This document shows positions 4,999 through 39,652 of a stretch of DNA of 64,000 nucleotides, one piece after another (the stretch's first letter is position 1; the number at the start of each line of letters is the position of its first letter). The DNA comes from a virus, in the IMG/VR virus record IMGVR_UViG_3300031603_000001, positions 133,959-197,958 of that record; one strand, given 5' to 3'. The notes beneath the pieces are model-generated. The model had not been told where the DNA came from, did not search any database, and was given only the letters and a program-made list of their open reading frames with translations. Made by a program: the position numbers and the translations under genes.

Positions 4999-6509
4999 TA
5001 TGTAACTTTCCTTTCTACAACAGCTCCATACAAATACATATAATTACCAGGGGAGTTTCCCTTAGTGGGATAACTAAGTCGATTCACAACAGCACGTGTT
5101 GATAATCCTAATTCATTATTAAGATGAATTAGATAAGCATCCCACATCTGATCAGATTTCTCTTTTGTTATACCTAATGCATTTCTACTATTAACATTAA
5201 TTAGAAAGCCTGCAGTACCTTTTTGGGGTACCCCTTTTAGTAATAATTTACTTATACTACGAAACAATTCAGGACGCATTATCTGAGTTAAATCTAGGCT
5301 TGCAAAGAGTAAATCTTTATTAACAACAGCCTTAAACACATTAGCATGTATGGCTTTAAAAGTTCGACGATTACCTGCAATCATATTACTTTGAATTGCC
5401 ATCGTCTCTATAATTGCATATTTCTTTTTATCTAGCTCATACCAGTCAATCTGTTTAGCATTTGGAAAGTATTCCATAATACGTAAACGCTCTGATTCGG
5501 CAGATACAGAAGGTAAAGATATTACACGAGATCCTGTAGCTGTAGGCGTTAATACCTTTTCAAGCTGTGACATGACCTCATTTATAGCAATATGTCTTTT
5601 TTGATACCATGTGTACATACGCTTCTCTTCACTAAGTGGAGCAGATATTGTACGTATAGTCGCTAAATGTTGTTGACAAGCATAAAGTACTCTTGTCTTT
5701 TTAATGAGGATATCACGATTACATATGAGGCATTTTGTTAATTTTACCTCTCTGAATATTATACCAACAGTACTAGGATGTTTACATAGATAACCTATAA
5801 CAGCAGGTTGATCTTTACGTTGATAAGGTCCATTTTTCCAAGAACGATCAACGGTCACCTCAGTGTCTTTAGGCAAGACTGTTGGTTCTATTTGTACCAG
5901 AATATCTTGACGACACTCTTTACAGAATTGTTCCCTATTTAATCGTTTTTTAATATGTGCACGTTCTGTACAAAACAATCTACGTCTATTACAAGCTAGG
6001 CACTTAGGCCCTTTTTTGATAAATCTACGAGTAGGCTTTTTTCCACGCTCCTCATATATAAAAAGGTTAGACGTACGATTATCTCGATAAATAGGAGGAT
6101 GCTTTTTATATTGAATATCTAAAGCGTATTTACTTTTATCTAAAGCATATAATACACTATCCTTTATAGCCTCATCTAGTCTATAAGCCTTTGTACGTGG
6201 CCATTTAATGCGATGTTGTTTAAGTAAACTTTCCAACGCAAATTGCCCGCATTGTAATTCTTTTTGCAGATCCCTTTTCGTGGCATTTTCTGCAATACGC
6301 TTCAAAAACCAGTTCTTATCTTGACGCAATATAGTATTTGGTATAACAGGAGTAGGTCTGGAAATATTATGCATAAGTAAATAATGACGTAATGTTTTAC
6401 GGGTTACCCCAATTGTTTTTGACATTTCATACATATTAATACTTTTATCTCTAATAAGTAATAACTCGTCTTTATTTCTTAATACATGATCTTGAGATAA
6501 TATTGACAT
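4998..6509 (-). CDS. multidomain protein: N-terminal HTH, Cys-rich zinc-binding segments, possible SAM-MTase-like C-terminal domain
   Basis: MYEMSKTIGVTRKTLRHYL (HTH-like); CLAC, CKEC, CLIC pairs; RVISLPS...WYELDKK...FASLDL spacing resembles a Rossmann MTase fold. Confidence 0.5.
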   Translation of the reverse strand: MSILSQDHVLRNKDELLLIRDKSINMYEMSKTIGVTRKTLRHYLLMHNISRPTPVIPNTILRQDKNWFLKRIAENATKRDLQKELQCGQFALESLLKQHRIKWPRTKAYRLDEAIKDSVLYALDKSKYALDIQYKKHPPIYRDNRTSNLFIYEERGKKPTRRFIKKGPKCLACNRRRLFCTERAHIKKRLNREQFCKECRQDILVQIEPTVLPKDTEVTVDRSWKNGPYQRKDQPAVIGYLCKHPSTVGIIFREVKLTKCLICNRDILIKKTRVLYACQQHLATIRTISAPLSEEKRMYTWYQKRHIAINEVMSQLEKVLTPTATGSRVISLPSVSAESERLRIMEYFPNAKQIDWYELDKKKYAIIETMAIQSNMIAGNRRTFKAIHANVFKAVVNKDLLFASLDLTQIMRPELFRSISKLLLKGVPQKGTAGFLINVNSRNALGITKEKSDQMWDAYLIHLNNELGLSTRAVVNRLSYPTKGNSPGNYMYLYGAVVERKVT

Positions 6510-8359: not shown

Positions 8360-8675
8360 TATCCTTCTCCTTCTGTATAGCTACAGGCAGTGCGTACTTT
8401 CGGAATGCTTGATTGATATCAGCAGTGTATAACACATAGTTTGTACTTTGCTGAGCTATGTAATCAATTAGAAAGTGAACATAACGCTCTGCTTGGTACT
8501 CAGAGTTTAATATAATTAAACTAAATTGCTTACGTCCTTTGCCGACTGTGTATATAAACCACCGGTCGTCGTTAGGCTTTTTAGAGGGAACTACCTCAAG
8601 CTCTAACATATTAACATTAATATACGTTCTTGGGATTAACCCATGTGTGGGTATCATCCCTGCGATAAACTTCAT
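8343..8675 (-). CDS. hypothetical protein
   Basis: 110-aa coupled ORF. Confidence 0.65.
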   Translation of the reverse strand: MKFIAGMIPTHGLIPRTYINVNMLELEVVPSKKPNDDRWFIYTVGKGRKQFSLIILNSEYQAERYVHFLIDYIAQQSTNYVLYTADINQAFRKYALPVAIQKEKDNALLL

Positions 8676-18325: not shown

Positions 18326-18476
18326 AGCGAGACTTAGGTTTATACTTAAACTCTATGAATGGTTGTCTATCCCCAATTTCCGTAAGCTGACGCCCTTGAT
18401 TCTCAATGATGGCATTACGTAATTGTTTTTGCAGTTCTAGTACAATACGATCGAGTCTTAATATTTCAAAGTACAT
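18312..18476 (-). CDS. 54-aa hypothetical protein
   Basis: AAGGA RBS directly after tRNA-Cys; below ORF-track cutoff. Confidence 0.5.
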   Translation of the reverse strand: MYFEILRLDRIVLELQKQLRNAIIENQGRQLTEIGDRQPFIEFKYKPKSRYVTF

Positions 18477-18504
18477 AGTATTTTCCTTCTTTTAGAGGAT
18501 ATTG

Positions 18505-18577
18505 AGCGCAGAGCGAGACTTGAACTCGCATCCTCCAGGTTTGCAGCCCGGCGCCTAGCCAATTCAGCCATCTGCGC
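18505..18577 (-). tRNA. tRNA-Cys(GCA)
   Basis: GCGCAGA/TCTGCGC acceptor, U73, CTGCAAA loop, GAGTTCAAGTCTC T-arm. Confidence 0.92.
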
Positions 18578-30450: not shown

Positions 30451-33400
30451 TTATTTGAAGTACTTCTCATCTTCAAATGTGCCATGAACTGCCTGGTTAC
30501 TCTTGACACTGAAGTCAGCATATGGATCTACTGATTCACGTGGCTTAGCAGTACGTAGCTTATTAACACGTTTAGCATCCATACCATCGCCTATCAACAT
30601 CCATGCTGATTGAGTATGAGCCATACCATCTGGTTCCCACTCAAGAGCAGGAAGAGAGATAATGATCTCTTCACTTGGACGAACAGCACTATATTCTGTA
30701 CCGTACTCCAGTGAAGCACCACGTAAGTATGGAACACCATCTTCAATCGTGATTGACTCAGGATCCAGGATAGGTTCATTGTTTGGATTGTACACACGTA
30801 CTAGGCGTGACTTAGTATCAGGCATGAAGGTCATTGGACCGCCAGTCATCTCTACCAAGCTACCATAGTTCAAGTGTACGATGTATCCACCGTCTGTTAA
30901 CAGTGGGTTAGCAGCATCAAGATACCGTTTAGTCTCTACTAGCCTAGCAGCTACTGGAATGCACTGACCAGCACCCTGTACCATCTCTACTACAGCAGAC
31001 ATATGATCTGACGTTAGCCCACCAGGACGTAGTTCAGACCACAGGTTCTTGATTGATGCAAGCTCAGCTGTATTGACACCATCTACTTCTTCATCGGAAT
31101 GTATCATCCGTCCAGCGAAGACTGCAAGTGGTTCAACACCATCTCTAAGAGCTATGACCTCTTCTTCAACACGTATAAGTACGGTGTTCCAGATGAAGTC
31201 CATGTAATGTAATGGGTCTTCGATCTGTGTGGCTAAGATATCTTCCACATCACCACCGGTATTGAAGTCAGTCATTAACGCATTAACATCAGCACGTGCC
31301 CATGGCATTTCTACCATTTCACGTAGGCTCTGAGCAGTTAAATGCGCTTTCTCTAGCTCTATATAGATCTGAGCTTCGTTCTTCTTGAGACGTACTTCCG
31401 TGCGAAACTTAGCACCCTTAATAGTCAACTCAATTGACTGTAATATAGGCGTTAGGTTAAGATACGGTTTCTCATCAGTACCGTCAGCGAGAACCTTGTT
31501 ATAGATAAGTCCACGATAATACATATTAGTGTACTTACCAATTGATGCACTACCACTGAATACTGTGATAGCCTGTATTGCCATACTCTCCATTGTGGCA
31601 GAGCTTCTACGTCTCTCTAGTCCATCTTTATCGATGTTCAGTCCGACTAGTTCATCGATTAAGCCGGTCCTAATGAGCTTGTCAGCAATGGGTCCACGTA
31701 TAGTCAGTCCACCATCACCATCACTATCTGTGTTTAACTCACCAGCTAGTCCTGCTTCAAGTACAACGAATGGTCCTATGTTAGTACGACCAACCACTTG
31801 TGCAACACCAGCAACGATGGGATATTTACAGAACAACTTGTCACCACGTACACCGGCAACAGGCTTACGAAGAGCGTTGATCTTCTTTGCATGCTCTTCT
31901 GTAACTGTGATAACCAAGCGATACTCAGTGCCATTGAATGGTCTGTGCATCACATAGTTTACTACAACACCTGCTAGTTTCTTAGCTACCCAAGGAAAGG
32001 TCTTACCAAGAGCTAACAGTGCTTCTTGAAGCTTAGAGTTAAGCTCAAGTACTTCGTAGTCTGGATCATCGTTACGAAATGCTTGCATCCTACGACCAGA
32101 CTCAGCCGATACGATCATTTCTTCGTAACTTGGTAGCTTACCACGTAGTATCTCGTCTTCAACAAGATCACGTACGATTGGATCATCTTGCATGAACTGC
32201 CAGAATTCAAAGCCTAGTCCAACAGCTTGACCCTTAACATTCCATATGTTATCATGGGTGATGATCATCCCATTTTCTTTACCATGACGTCCTAGGTACT
32301 CACCAGGGGCAACAGGGTGTACTTTGACATCATTCTCACAGATGACTAGGTCATAGGCTTCCCACTCTAATGGAAAGTCTAATTGCATAGCATTGCGAGC
32401 ATGTGCGTATCCAACCATAACTCCCTTACCTACTGAGTTACCATTGATCCGTACTCTGAACTGACCACTGTTGTGACCACCAAGAGCGGCACCATCGCCA
32501 GGAAGACCGACTGCTCGGAACTTTGCTTCAGATACTACCAGTACCCTTGTGTTGTTGTACACGAAGTACCTACCGTCTTTGCTACCGGCGGGTGTGAACA
32601 GCAAGGACAAGTAACCTATAGCTTCGTGAGCAAACGCTAAGTCACCTTCTGGCCAATTACAAGCGTAGAATGTACCCTTGTTTAGACCAGTGCCGCCCAT
32701 ATATTGAAAGCCCTCATCAAGACTGAGCTTTAACATATAGGATTGAAACTTCTGTTGGAAGGGTTTATTCTTCAACAGTTGTTTAGCTAATCTCTTATCA
32801 CTCACCTTGATGGTGTAAGAGACAGCATCCTTAATACCGAACAAGGCACCAAGACAGATACGTATTGCTACATTCCCTGCCTTCATGTCAGTGTTTGGTA
32901 CTGGTTTGTGGATCTTGAAATCAAGCACAGACTTCATACCATCACGAGTTCTTTTCATCACTGTGATAGGTATGAGCATGTGTGTAATCTCTGTTGACCG
33001 TTCATCACCCTTGGCAACCAGTTCGTCTAAGAACGCTTGGTTGTTACTGGTGTTAAAGATTGCGCTGATTATATCAGTTAGTGAACGCATCTTTTCCTTC
33101 CTCTCCTTGTCCGTGGCTATTACTAGAACAGCAACACTGGCAAGGCTTGTGGTCATCCTGAGCTGACCTGTTGATAGGGCAATGCCCATTACCAATATGG
33201 ACAAGGCGATTATGCCACCTCGTCTTGTACCCAGCATCCGTTGTCCTACGAATCCCAGGGCTTTCTTGGCCGTACTTATTACTAAGCGGGACCAGGCTAG
33301 TGATACTCTTACTATGTAACTAGCATAAAGTACCGCGATTATGGCCATCACTGCTGATTTAATAGCAGTATTGACCGATTTAATGAATAAGGATGTTAAC

Positions 33401-33591
33401 ACTGTCCCTATCACTGTTTCTGTTCTATCTGTACGAGCATAGAACTTGGTTAAGCCCTTGCGTCCTTTGATCAGGATGTAAGAACTAGAGAGCCCAAAGC
33501 GGTCTCTCATGGTTGGTGTGATAGCAGCCGATGCTACGATCACAGTTCCTGCTATAAGCAAGAACGCGACAAACAAAACGATTGAATACAT
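30451..33591 (-). CDS. YonO/QDE-1-like single-subunit two-barrel RNA polymerase (core likely starts at 33090; in-frame hydrophobic N-terminal extension)
   Basis: ordered motifs PGDG...GQFR...GKGVMV...DLVICENDVK, FCKYP, LNTDSDGD (31714-31728), IGKYTN, ELTIKGAK; core 879 aa. Confidence 0.75.
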   Translation of the reverse strand: MYSIVLFVAFLLIAGTVIVASAAITPTMRDRFGLSSSYILIKGRKGLTKFYARTDRTETVIGTVLTSLFIKSVNTAIKSAVMAIIAVLYASYIVRVSLAWSRLVISTAKKALGFVGQRMLGTRRGGIIALSILVMGIALSTGQLRMTTSLASVAVLVIATDKERKEKMRSLTDIISAIFNTSNNQAFLDELVAKGDERSTEITHMLIPITVMKRTRDGMKSVLDFKIHKPVPNTDMKAGNVAIRICLGALFGIKDAVSYTIKVSDKRLAKQLLKNKPFQQKFQSYMLKLSLDEGFQYMGGTGLNKGTFYACNWPEGDLAFAHEAIGYLSLLFTPAGSKDGRYFVYNNTRVLVVSEAKFRAVGLPGDGAALGGHNSGQFRVRINGNSVGKGVMVGYAHARNAMQLDFPLEWEAYDLVICENDVKVHPVAPGEYLGRHGKENGMIITHDNIWNVKGQAVGLGFEFWQFMQDDPIVRDLVEDEILRGKLPSYEEMIVSAESGRRMQAFRNDDPDYEVLELNSKLQEALLALGKTFPWVAKKLAGVVVNYVMHRPFNGTEYRLVITVTEEHAKKINALRKPVAGVRGDKLFCKYPIVAGVAQVVGRTNIGPFVVLEAGLAGELNTDSDGDGGLTIRGPIADKLIRTGLIDELVGLNIDKDGLERRRSSATMESMAIQAITVFSGSASIGKYTNMYYRGLIYNKVLADGTDEKPYLNLTPILQSIELTIKGAKFRTEVRLKKNEAQIYIELEKAHLTAQSLREMVEMPWARADVNALMTDFNTGGDVEDILATQIEDPLHYMDFIWNTVLIRVEEEVIALRDGVEPLAVFAGRMIHSDEEVDGVNTAELASIKNLWSELRPGGLTSDHMSAVVEMVQGAGQCIPVAARLVETKRYLDAANPLLTDGGYIVHLNYGSLVEMTGGPMTFMPDTKSRLVRVYNPNNEPILDPESITIEDGVPYLRGASLEYGTEYSAVRPSEEIIISLPALEWEPDGMAHTQSAWMLIGDGMDAKRVNKLRTAKPRESVDPYADFSVKSNQAVHGTFEDEKYFK

Positions 33592-33676
33592 TTAAGTATC
33601 CTTTCATTTTTTGATACATCTATCCCGTGACTGACCCACGTTATTCAGTCAAGATGTATCTATTATGTGGGTTTTG

Positions 33677-33721
33677 TAGGGCGTAGGGGAATCGAACCCC
33701 ATTGAATCTACCACACGCCCT
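33677..33721 (-). ncRNA. 45-nt mini-tRNA: acceptor + D-loop-like linker + T-arm, no anticodon arm
   Basis: AGGGCGT-GTGGTAGATTCAA-TGGGG-TTCGATT-CCCCT-ACGCCCT-A-CAA. Confidence 0.7.
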
Positions 33722-33735
33722 TCCTTACTTACTAG

Positions 33736-34146
33736 TTATGCACTAGCATCACTCAGCAGCTGATTGTATTGCAGCCAGTTGCGGTCTGCTCTTTCACTAA
33801 CTTCAAGGTAGAAGTCAGAGAGCTTTGTCTTCTCACTCACCAGCTCCCCGTTCTTCCATGTAGAGCGTATCCTAGCATGGGCTGATACTGCTATAGGCAG
33901 CTCAGGGTGTTTCTTTGATAGGGCACAAGCAAGTTTGTCAGCGTTAGCTTCTACAAACCATTGTACCTTATTGCCCCATCCTACCATTGCATTCACATTC
34001 CAAGTCGTATGGTCTCTGTCTAATGCGTACCCGGTCTCAGGTTCACGGTCAGGGATACTCATATGATCAGTGAAATCAAGCGCTTCGAACGCCTCTTTGT
34101 TAAGACGGTTAGCCTTCACTGTGTAATGCTCTTCTTGGGTACTCAT
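33736..34146 (-). CDS. hypothetical protein
   Basis: 136-aa ORF. Confidence 0.7.
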   Translation of the reverse strand: MSTQEEHYTVKANRLNKEAFEALDFTDHMSIPDREPETGYALDRDHTTWNVNAMVGWGNKVQWFVEANADKLACALSKKHPELPIAVSAHARIRSTWKNGELVSEKTKLSDFYLEVSERADRNWLQYNQLLSDASA

Positions 34147-39582: not shown

Positions 39583-39652
39583 GTCTACAGACAGGAGCCC
39601 TTTGGTGGGGCAGCACATAGCTGAGGTTCGAATCCAGACCCAGTCTGTAGAC
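39583..39652 (+). ncRNA. tRNA-like fold with 10-bp closing stem and stunted anticodon arm
   Basis: GTCTACAGAC/GTCTGTAGAC perfect stem enclosing GCCC-TTTGGTG-GGGC, AGC-ACATA-GCT and GGTTCGAATCC. Confidence 0.55.

What the first reader, a model, noticed from the sequence alone, without database searches (positions are those of the whole stretch)
33677..33721. 45-nt minimal tRNA (acceptor + T-arm + D-loop linker) in front of the RNA polymerase gene
Seen: a perfect 7-bp stem AGGGCGT/ACGCCCT stacked on GGGG/CCCC with loop TTCGATT; the two are joined by only GTGGTAGATTCAA, which keeps the D-loop TGGTAGA. It is followed by A-CAA like the real tRNAs and by a GATACATCT/AGATGTATC hairpin. Established: the acceptor-T minihelix is the unit recognised by RNase P, RNase Z, the CCA enzyme and EF-Tu. 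Inference: a natural minihelix acting as a decoy or as a processing site that sets the RNAP mRNA 5' end.
Basis: partly seen in the sequence, partly recalled or inferred. Interest (0 to 1): 0.7.

Follow-up and report, generated by a model that had tools for sequence, protein, structure and literature searches.

The report
Truncated tRNA-Glu top half in phage
A 198-kb uncultured phage carries a glutamate-type tRNA gene that has lost its D stem and anticodon arm, leaving a 44-base acceptor/T-arm hairpin that cannot decode. It probably still serves as a cutting site for tRNA-trimming enzymes in front of a large gene, but it is a one-off with no conserved relatives.

Summary
The element is real. 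It lies on the minus strand (window 33721 to 33678, plus A73 at 33677). It has a perfect 7-bp acceptor stem, a 14-nt linker containing TGGTAGA, and a GGGG/CCCC T stem with loop TTCGATT. It is followed by A-CAAAA and a strong hairpin.

It is the only such structure in the 198-kb genome; 60 simulated genomes gave none. Its top half is glutamate-tRNA type: 25 consecutive bases are identical to bacterial tRNA-Glu. G8·U65 replaces the 49:65 pair, so the canonical 12-bp acceptor/T stack survives.

No tRNA finder or Rfam family accepts it. Distant relatives of the downstream gene have neither a tRNA nor a minihelix at this position. No copy was found in IMG/VR. Near-identical strains show no variation. 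Selection therefore cannot be shown.

Best reading: an internally deleted tRNA gene sitting in a normal "tRNA slot" of a leftward operon, probably still cut by RNase P and 3' tRNA-processing enzymes, like the t-elements of plant mitochondria. An inert relic is nearly as likely. A decoy role is unsupported. The RNA polymerase label of the downstream gene rests only on a DxDGD motif.

This scan has noted similar truncated tRNA look-alikes in other phages.

The parts
33715..33721 (-). 5' acceptor strand AGGGCGT (tRNA positions 1-7)
   Evidence: Pairs 7/7 Watson-Crick with 33678-33684; pair probabilities 0.94-1.0.
33701..33714 (-). 14-nt linker GTGGTAGATTCAAT replacing the D stem, anticodon arm and variable region. 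G8 (33714) can pair with U65 (33685).
   Evidence: The fold shows 8 outer pairs. Contains TGGTAGA and TTCAATGG, both D-arm motifs of this phage's tRNA-Asp.
33686..33700 (-). T arm: GGGG stem, TTCGATT loop, CCCC stem
   Evidence: (Rfam tmRNA/tRNA-clan T-arm match, 13.3 bits).
33677..33685 (-). U65, 3' acceptor strand ACGCCCT and discriminator A73
   Evidence: The 21-mer GGTTCGATTCCCCTACGCCCT is identical to bacterial tRNA-Glu genes.
33672..33676 (-). 3' trailer C74-AAAA, the same type as behind the phage's real tRNAs
   Evidence: 22/23 tRNAs have C74, 8/23 have CAA.
33613..33660 (-). Two-step hairpin: 9 bp GATACATCT/AGATGTATC, 6-nt internal loop, 7 bp TGACTGA/TCAGTCA. It is followed by A6, not U.
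   Evidence: (z = -3.39). No terminator call.
33725..33738 (-). Stop codon of the upstream 136-aa ORF, then stops in the other two frames (TAACTAGTAAGTAA), 3 nt before the minihelix
   Evidence: read directly from the sequence.
30451..33591 (-). Downstream 1046-aa gene (P0001). N-terminal hydrophobic part plus a core with a nearly invariant D622-x-D624-G-D626. AAGGA Shine-Dalgarno at 33599-33603.

Best explanation
The element is a glutamate-type tRNA gene that lost its D stem, anticodon arm and variable region by internal deletion or rearrangement. The likely join is at the GG of the D loop and the GG of the T stem (AATGG|GGTTCG). What remains is the tRNA 'top half': a 12-bp coaxial helix (7-bp acceptor, G8·U65, 4-bp T stem) capped by a canonical T loop, with a 13-nt bulge that still carries D-loop GG motifs. 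It cannot decode.

It lies on the coding strand of a long leftward operon, in the same kind of slot as the phage's real tRNAs. It sits 14 nt after a stop codon, has the same N73-C74-AAA trailer, and is followed by a hairpin, a Shine-Dalgarno sequence and the next gene. I infer that it is co-transcribed and still recognised by host RNase P at its 5' side, and by RNase Z or another 3' tRNA-trimming enzyme plus the CCA-adding enzyme at its 3' side. That would release a small RNA of about 45-48 nt and separate the upstream message from the message of the 1046-aa gene, whose new 5' region carries the stable hairpin.

Shown: the structure, its tRNA-Glu ancestry, its uniqueness in the genome and its context. 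Inferred: transcription, cleavage and any benefit from it.
For: The structure is present and far above chance. The top half is tRNA-Glu type. 25 consecutive bases (G50 to C74) and 6 of 7 bases of the 5' strand are identical to Fusobacteriaceae and Enterococcus tRNA-Glu. Of 20 full-length IMG/VR tRNAs with this top half, 14 are tRNA-Glu. The U at position 49 and the AATGGGG junction fit a deletion between D-loop GG and T-stem GG (my reading). The 12-bp stack is kept through G8·U65.

The context matches real tRNAs. Strand, C74 and the CAAA trailer are the same. Hairpins follow several real tRNAs. An SD and ATG lie 28-103 nt after each tRNA or tRNA-like element in the window.

There is a precedent for processing. 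A tRNA-like module with a 7-bp acceptor stem in M. smegmatis YrlA is cut by RNase P RNA in vitro and receives CCA in vivo (PMC4201824). Plant mitochondrial t-elements mark mRNA ends (PMC1920247).
Against: There are no expression or cleavage data. No homologue exists anywhere I could search, so there is no covariation and no sign of purifying selection. Relatives of the downstream gene have nothing tRNA-like upstream. Near-identical strains are invariant here, which says nothing. The -1 base is A rather than the U seen before most of the phage's tRNAs. The linker needs more than one event to derive from any D arm I could align. The hairpin starts 16 nt after the element, not right at the predicted new 5' end.
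Confidence: 0.5

Rival explanations
1. Inert relic: a recently broken tRNA-Glu pseudogene with no selected role. It may or may not be nicked by tRNA enzymes, but the phage gains nothing from it.
For: It is a singleton, absent from all relatives and from 2.9 million IMG/VR contigs. The phage already has a functional tRNA-Glu(UUC) elsewhere. The genome holds other degenerate tRNA pieces, such as a 52-nt T-arm element right after tRNA-Leu whose best fold is not tRNA-like. tRNA gene fragments are common in prokaryotic genomes (PMC9897764).
Against: Both helices are perfect and the T loop is canonical. The 12-bp stack length is kept by G8·U65, and G1·U72 of the parent type has become A1-U72. The linker looks like the product of several events, yet the top half shows no damage. 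These points are suggestive, not statistical.
Confidence: 0.33
2. Trans-acting tRNA mimic: the released, CCA-tailed top half acts as a decoy, sponge or primer. It might act against tRNA-directed host defences, on tRNA-processing or CCA enzymes, or with the neighbouring polymerase-like protein.
For: The genome invests heavily in tRNA mimicry. It has seven Y-RNA-like genes, four of them with circularly permuted tRNA modules, next to a DUF2828 protein. It also has tRNA-shaped RNAs with remodelled anticodon arms at window 22431-22510 and 27428-27515. A relative carries a 124-nt mini-tmRNA.
Against: The anti-phage tRNases I could check (PrrC, PARIS AriB, retron PtuAB, bacterial Schlafen) cut the anticodon loop or arm, which is missing here (PMC13056530; PMC10264068). 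There is no conservation. The element is not flanked by the Y-RNA terminal motifs. There is no G3·U70 or other strong minihelix charging signal.
Confidence: 0.1
3. Remnant of a tmRNA tRNA-like domain with the whole mRNA-like middle deleted.
For: The 14-nt linker matches the D-loop analogue of the relative's mini-tmRNA at 9 of 14 positions, in the same register after the acceptor strand (GUGGUAGAUUCAAU against GUUAUGGAUUCGAC). Rfam's tmRNA model aligns the T arm.
Against: G3-C70 instead of the G3·U70 found in tmRNA. The top half is identical to tRNA-Glu, not to tmRNA. The score is 13.3 bits against a gathering score of 47. The positional counterpart of the relative's mini-tmRNA is a different element, at window 27428-27595.
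Confidence: 0.03
4. Phage attachment or recombination site carrying the 3' end of a host tRNA-Glu gene.
For: 25 bases are identical to the 3' part of bacterial tRNA-Glu genes, a typical attP core length.
Against: No tyrosine or serine recombinase was found in the complete genome. An attP core does not explain the perfectly matching 5' acceptor strand or the D-loop-like linker. CCA of the bacterial genes is CAA here, matching the phage's own tRNA trailers.
Confidence: 0.02

Closest known systems
t-elements (tRNA-like processing signals) of plant mitochondrial mRNAs (Forner et al. 2007, PMC1920247)
   Same: Non-decoding, tRNA-derived acceptor/T-type structures embedded in protein-coding transcripts next to gene boundaries. 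They are proposed to be cut by RNase P and RNase Z and so define mRNA ends.
   Different: Those were mapped experimentally and occur in organelles. This one is in a phage, is a single copy, has no mapped RNA ends and is unusually small (44 nt).
Truncated or partial tRNA genes in prokaryote and phage genomes (PMC9897764)
   Same: Derived from a normal tRNA gene by loss of internal or terminal parts; missed or mis-scored by tRNA finders.
   Different: Typical fragments are 5' or 3' halves left by integrating elements. Here both acceptor strands and the T arm are kept, and only the middle is gone.
Synthetic acceptor/T-arm minihelix substrates of RNase P, RNase Z, CCA-adding enzyme and EF-Tu (my own knowledge of the biochemical literature)
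   Same: A 12-bp acceptor/T helix with a T loop and a discriminator base.
   Different: The natural element carries an extra 13-nt bulge with D-loop GG motifs and is embedded in a long transcript.
tRNA-like module of bacterial and phage YrlA Y RNAs (Chen et al. 2014, PMC4201824; Rfam RF02553)
   Same: A non-decoding tRNA mimic with a T arm and acceptor-like stem. The M. smegmatis version, which has a 7-bp stem, is cut by RNase P and receives CCA. The same phage genome carries seven Y-RNA-like genes.
   Different: YrlA modules are circularly permuted, keep a D arm and sit inside a Ro60-binding helix. The minihelix has none of these and lacks the family's terminal motifs.
mascRNA / MEN-beta tRNA-like RNAs (Rfam RF01684)
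   Same: Best full-length Rfam alignment. A small tRNA-like RNA excised from a longer transcript by RNase P and RNase Z.
   Different: 20 bits against a gathering score of 42.5, a vertebrate family, and mascRNA keeps a short anticodon-like stem. This is an analogy only.

Membership tests
Canonical tRNA (Rfam RF00005 / ARAGORN) | Cloverleaf with D arm and anticodon arm; score over threshold | tested here: not met
   Not called by ARAGORN. No RF00005 match at E<=10. Only 14 nt lie between the acceptor strand and the T stem.
Canonical tRNA (Rfam RF00005 / ARAGORN) | 7-bp acceptor stem, 5-position T stem with G53-C61, T loop TTCRANN, discriminator base | tested here: met
   Position 49:65 is U·U, replaced by G8·U65.
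tRNA-Glu lineage (origin, not function) | Acceptor and T-arm sequence shared with annotated tRNA-Glu genes | tested here: met
   The 21-mer is identical in 16 tRNA-Glu gene copies at 15 loci of Fusobacteriaceae and Enterococcus genomes. 14 of 20 IMG/VR tRNAs with this top half are Glu.
t-element-like processing signal | tRNA-like acceptor/T structure inside a protein-coding transcription unit, next to a gene boundary | tested here: met
   Same strand as the flanking ORFs, 14 nt after a stop codon and 85 nt before the next ATG. No promoter-like or terminator-like site lies between them on that strand.
t-element-like processing signal | RNA ends at the structure generated by RNase P / RNase Z | not testable with these tools
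tmRNA tRNA-like domain (RF00023) | G3·U70, mRNA-like domain with tag frame, score over 47 bits | tested here: not met
   G3-C70. Only the T arm aligns, at 13.3 bits. No room for a tag frame.
YrlA / Y RNA (RF02553) and this phage's Y-RNA-like family | Permuted order T arm, acceptor hairpin, D arm inside a terminal helix (here 5' AACCYYACAGCAA / 3' GGTTACCGCAAGGTT) | tested here: not met
   The motif scan finds seven copies at genome 126-132 kb and none at the minihelix. The order here is not permuted. No RF02553 hit in the window.
mascRNA-menRNA (RF01684) | Score over the gathering threshold of 42.5 bits | tested here: not met
   20 bits, E = 0.27.
attP site in a tRNA gene | Integrase encoded by the phage | tested here: not met
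   No PF00589 or PF00239 match in the complete genome.
Two-barrel (YonO / RdRP-like) RNA polymerase, for the downstream gene | DxDGD catalytic loop in a double-psi beta-barrel; significant similarity to YonO or a solved RNAP | tested here: inconclusive
   D622-x-D624-G-D626 is nearly invariant in 20 homologues. hhalign against a YonO alignment aligns 87 columns around the motif, but with probability 13% and E = 0.002. No Pfam, PHROG or PDB sequence hit.

The most novel reading that the evidence does not exclude
The minihelix is not debris but a purpose-kept, non-decoding tRNA 'top half'. It would be excised, CCA-tailed and would act in trans, for instance by titrating or distracting a host factor that reads the acceptor/T-arm elbow, or by serving the adjacent polymerase-like enzyme. 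It would be one piece of a broader tRNA-mimicry programme in this phage, alongside Y-RNA-like genes with permuted tRNA modules, an alanine-type tRNA mimic without an anticodon, and tRNA-shaped RNAs with oversized anticodon loops.
Probability: 0.1. Interest if true: 0.7.

Novelty: new member of a known kind. Interest (0 to 1): 0.3.

Why it matters
If the element is cut as predicted, it would be a very small natural example of tRNA punctuation in a phage operon. It would show that a tRNA gene can lose its decoding half and still serve as an RNA-processing signal. It also warns that tRNA finders and Rfam miss such remnants. On present evidence it is a single, unconserved locus, so its value is mainly as one data point in the emerging picture of truncated tRNA look-alikes in phages. 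It is also part of the unusually rich tRNA-mimic content of this particular genome.

Tried and rejected
**Searches for homologues found nothing.**
- Exact 23-mer in IMG/VR.
- Degenerate linker plus T-arm pattern.
- Acceptor, 5-30 nt gap, T-arm pattern.
- blastn of the locus against 50,697 phage records.
- The upstream 136-aa protein has no relatives.

**Upstream regions of RNAP-family homologues** (G001/L002, L003, L004-L009, L024-L028) carry no tRNA and no minihelix, and share no sequence with each other.

**Other genomes and contigs examined.**
- The G001 47-nt hit to the tRNA model (18461-18507, E = 0.83) turned out to be a 12-position stem with a perfect T arm and no GG in its linker. It lies at a non-syntenic place, so I do not count it as a homologue.
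- Two contigs carrying an identical P0001 were compared; both are identical across the locus.
- G002, a 24.8-kb relative, does not reach the region.

**Explanations tested and rejected.**
- Part of a Y RNA: rejected.
- tmRNA: rejected.
- attP: rejected.
- The hairpin as a repeated regulatory motif: GATACATCT is not enriched.
- Promoter or terminator: none called at the site.

**Annotation of P0001 led nowhere.** Pfam, PHROGs, PDB sequence search, ESM Atlas and tblastn against phages all gave nothing.

Full report
**Observation**

The window is bases 133,959-197,958 of a 197,958-bp IMG/VR virus record. The element lies on the minus strand. It reads AGGGCGT | GTGGTAGATTCAAT | GGGG-TTCGATT-CCCC | T | ACGCCCT | A, followed by CAAAACCC.
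- RNAfold gives the minihelix as the minimum-energy and centroid structure, both alone and within the 144-nt intergenic region.
- In a 421-nt context the acceptor pairs have probability 0.94-1.0, the T stem 0.75 and the downstream hairpin about 1.0.
- A strict structural scan finds this one site in the genome and none in 60 simulated genomes.

It is therefore not a chance hairpin. It is tRNA-derived DNA.

**What it derives from**

The 21-mer covering the T arm and 3' acceptor strand occurs exactly at 15 loci of bacterial genomes, in 16 gene copies, all of them tRNA-Glu genes of Fusobacteriaceae MAGs and two Enterococcus species.
- Aligned to these, the minihelix is identical over 25 consecutive bases (G50 to C74) and at 6 of 7 bases of the 5' strand.
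- The differences are G1 to A, which turns G1·U72 into A1-U72, and A49 to U.
- In IMG/VR, 20 full-length tRNAs share this top half. 14 are tRNA-Glu(UUC), three are Asp and three are Ile(UAU).
- No IMG/VR contig has the short form.
- The phage has its own, different tRNA-Glu(UUC) elsewhere.

**Anatomy**

The junction AATGG|GGTTCG fits a deletion that joined the GG of a D loop to the last two G of the T-stem 5' strand. That would explain why position 49 is U and mismatched with U65 (my reading).

The fold pairs G8 with U65 instead. The helix is therefore continuous: 7 + 1 + 4 = 12 bp, the length of the acceptor/T stack of a normal tRNA, with a 13-nt bulge.

The linker contains TGGTAGA and TTCAATGG. 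Both are pieces of the D arm of this phage's tRNA-Asp, but in swapped order. No single deletion from any tRNA I aligned produces it.

The linker also matches the D-loop analogue of a relative's mini-tmRNA at 9 of 14 positions in register. I treat that as a lead only. The G3-C70 pair and the tRNA-Glu identity speak against a tmRNA origin.

**Context**

All genes from about window 38,000 down to 1 are on the minus strand. In this stretch there are four ARAGORN tRNAs, one further Infernal tRNA with an oversized anticodon loop (22431-22510, 47.8 bits), a tRNA-shaped element at 27428-27515 and the minihelix.
- Each sits in an intergenic gap, 28-103 nt upstream of an SD and ATG.
- 22 of 23 tRNA genes encode C74 but not C75-A76, and eight continue CAA. 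The minihelix has A73-C74-AAAA.
- Several real tRNAs are followed by strong hairpins, as the minihelix is.
- The upstream 136-aa ORF ends 14 nt before the element, with stops in all three frames.
- The hairpin at 33660-33613 is followed by A6, an AAGGA Shine-Dalgarno and the ATG at 33591.
- No sigma-70-like promoter or intrinsic terminator is called at the site on this strand.

The element thus occupies an ordinary tRNA slot of this operon.

**Comparative evidence**

The phage is far from any cultured phage; its terminase is at most 29% identical to any in 50,697 records. The downstream protein belongs to a rare family, with 24 representatives among 1.84 billion proteins.
- In all loci I could fetch (G001, an NCBI 195-kb contig, Logan and JGI contigs; 27-40% identity) there is no tRNA and no minihelix upstream of the homologue.
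- Those upstream regions share no sequence with each other.
- The two contigs compared that carry an identical protein are identical across the locus.
- G001 has a 47-nt weak hit to the tRNA model elsewhere in its genome. It is a long imperfect stem with a T arm, in a non-syntenic position, and I do not count it.

**Wider genome**

The apparent circularly permuted tRNAs just left of the window are Y-RNA-like genes.
- Two hit Rfam YrlA at 35 bits, below the gathering score of 69.
- Seven copies share 5' AACCYYACAGCAA and 3' GGTTACCGCAAGGTT-like ends.
- A DUF2828 protein lies directly upstream of them. TROVE itself is not detected.

The minihelix lacks these terminal motifs and is not permuted, so it is not a member. 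The genome does, however, plainly reuse tRNA parts in non-decoding RNAs.

**The downstream gene**

P0001 has a hydrophobic N-terminal part of about 170 aa and a core with a nearly invariant DxDGD motif. A profile comparison with a YonO alignment aligns 87 columns around that motif, but weakly (probability 13%, E = 0.002). Pfam, PHROGs, PDB sequences and the Atlas give nothing. 'RNA polymerase' is plausible but not established.

**Mechanism and rivals**

Established biochemistry (my own knowledge) is that the acceptor/T minihelix suffices for RNase P, RNase Z, the CCA-adding enzyme and EF-Tu. In support, the 7-bp-stem tRNA-like module of M. smegmatis YrlA is cut by RNase P RNA and CCA-tailed in vivo (PMC4201824). 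Plant mitochondrial t-elements mark mRNA ends (PMC1920247).

I therefore commit to a t-element-like reading: a broken tRNA-Glu gene that is still excised and so separates the two messages (confidence about 0.5).
- A functionless relic is nearly as likely (0.33).
- A trans-acting decoy is possible but unsupported (0.1). The anti-phage tRNases described so far cut the anticodon arm or loop (PMC13056530; PMC10264068), which this RNA lacks.
- The attP and tmRNA-remnant readings fail defining tests.

**Novelty**

Truncated tRNA genes, minihelix substrates and t-elements are all known. Earlier notes of this scan report similar acceptor/T-arm look-alikes in other phages (unchecked by me). This is a new, very small and clean member of that kind. 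It has no conservation and no data on function, so its interest is low to moderate.

Noticed in passing
genome 126,170-133,820 (just left of the window; L022 12,170-19,820), minus strand: Seven Y-RNA-like genes share 5' AACCYYACAGCAA and 3' GGTTACCGCAAGGTT-type ends. At least four contain circularly permuted tRNA modules. Two hit Rfam YrlA at about 35 bits (gathering score 69). A DUF2828 protein (41.6 bits) lies directly upstream; TROVE is not detected.
   Followed up: partly
window 27428-27515 (-), with a weak alpha_tmRNA hit at 27519-27595: tRNA-shaped RNA with a GGGGAGT/ACTCTCC acceptor (G3·U70, A73, alanine-type), normal D and T arms, and a 34-nt two-step hairpin in place of an anticodon arm. 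Infernal does not call it as a tRNA. It is the positional counterpart of the mini-tmRNA in the relative L003.
   Followed up: partly
window 22431-22510 (-): An 80-nt tRNA (Infernal 47.8 bits) missed by ARAGORN at default settings, with a 6-bp anticodon stem and a 12-nt loop.
   Followed up: no
window 39583-39652 (+) and L067 (G002) about 5300-5375 (+): A T-arm-containing element closed by a 10-bp stem (GTCTACAGAC/GTCTGTAGAC). It has a syntenic counterpart in a 24.8-kb relative with a changed but still complementary stem (GTCTAGGG/CCCTAGAC). This looks like a conserved structured RNA between homologous genes.
   Followed up: partly
L003 10756-10879 (+) (NCBI JBINOJ010001093.1): A 124-nt mini-tmRNA passes the Rfam tmRNA gathering score (51.6 against 47). 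It has a full tRNA-like domain but only about 55 nt in place of 306 consensus positions, and it ends ACTA rather than ACCA. In the same locus a CCA-adding enzyme gene follows the RNAP-family gene.
   Followed up: partly
genome 125,101-125,231 and 116,773-116,877 (L022 11101-11231 and 2773-2877), minus strand: Two tRNA-model hits of 131 and 105 nt (35-36 bits) with long insertions in the anticodon region, possibly introns or remodelled arms.
   Followed up: no
genome 121,372-121,423 (-), 4 nt after tRNA-Leu: A 52-nt element with a good T arm (GCAGG-TTCGACT-CCTGT) and a 7-pair acceptor-like stem with two G·U pairs. Its minimum-energy fold is not tRNA-like, so it may be a second decayed tRNA copy.
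   Followed up: partly
whole genome, 23 tRNA genes: 22 of 23 tRNA genes encode C74 but not C75-A76, and 8 continue CAA. Only tRNA-Glu(UUC) encodes CCA. No PF01743 CCA-adding enzyme was found in this genome.
   Followed up: partly
window 30451-33591 (-): The 1046-aa protein belongs to a very rare family (24 representatives among 1.84 billion proteins) with a nearly invariant DxDGD. In this phage and in L003 a hydrophobic N-terminal part is fused to it; in G001 that part may be a separate upstream gene.
   Followed up: partly
L030 from locus position 8429 (window about 28163 downward): An otherwise identical strain (ENA ERZ27316312) diverges completely from the window here, marking a strain-variable segment downstream of tRNA-Met.
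   Followed up: no
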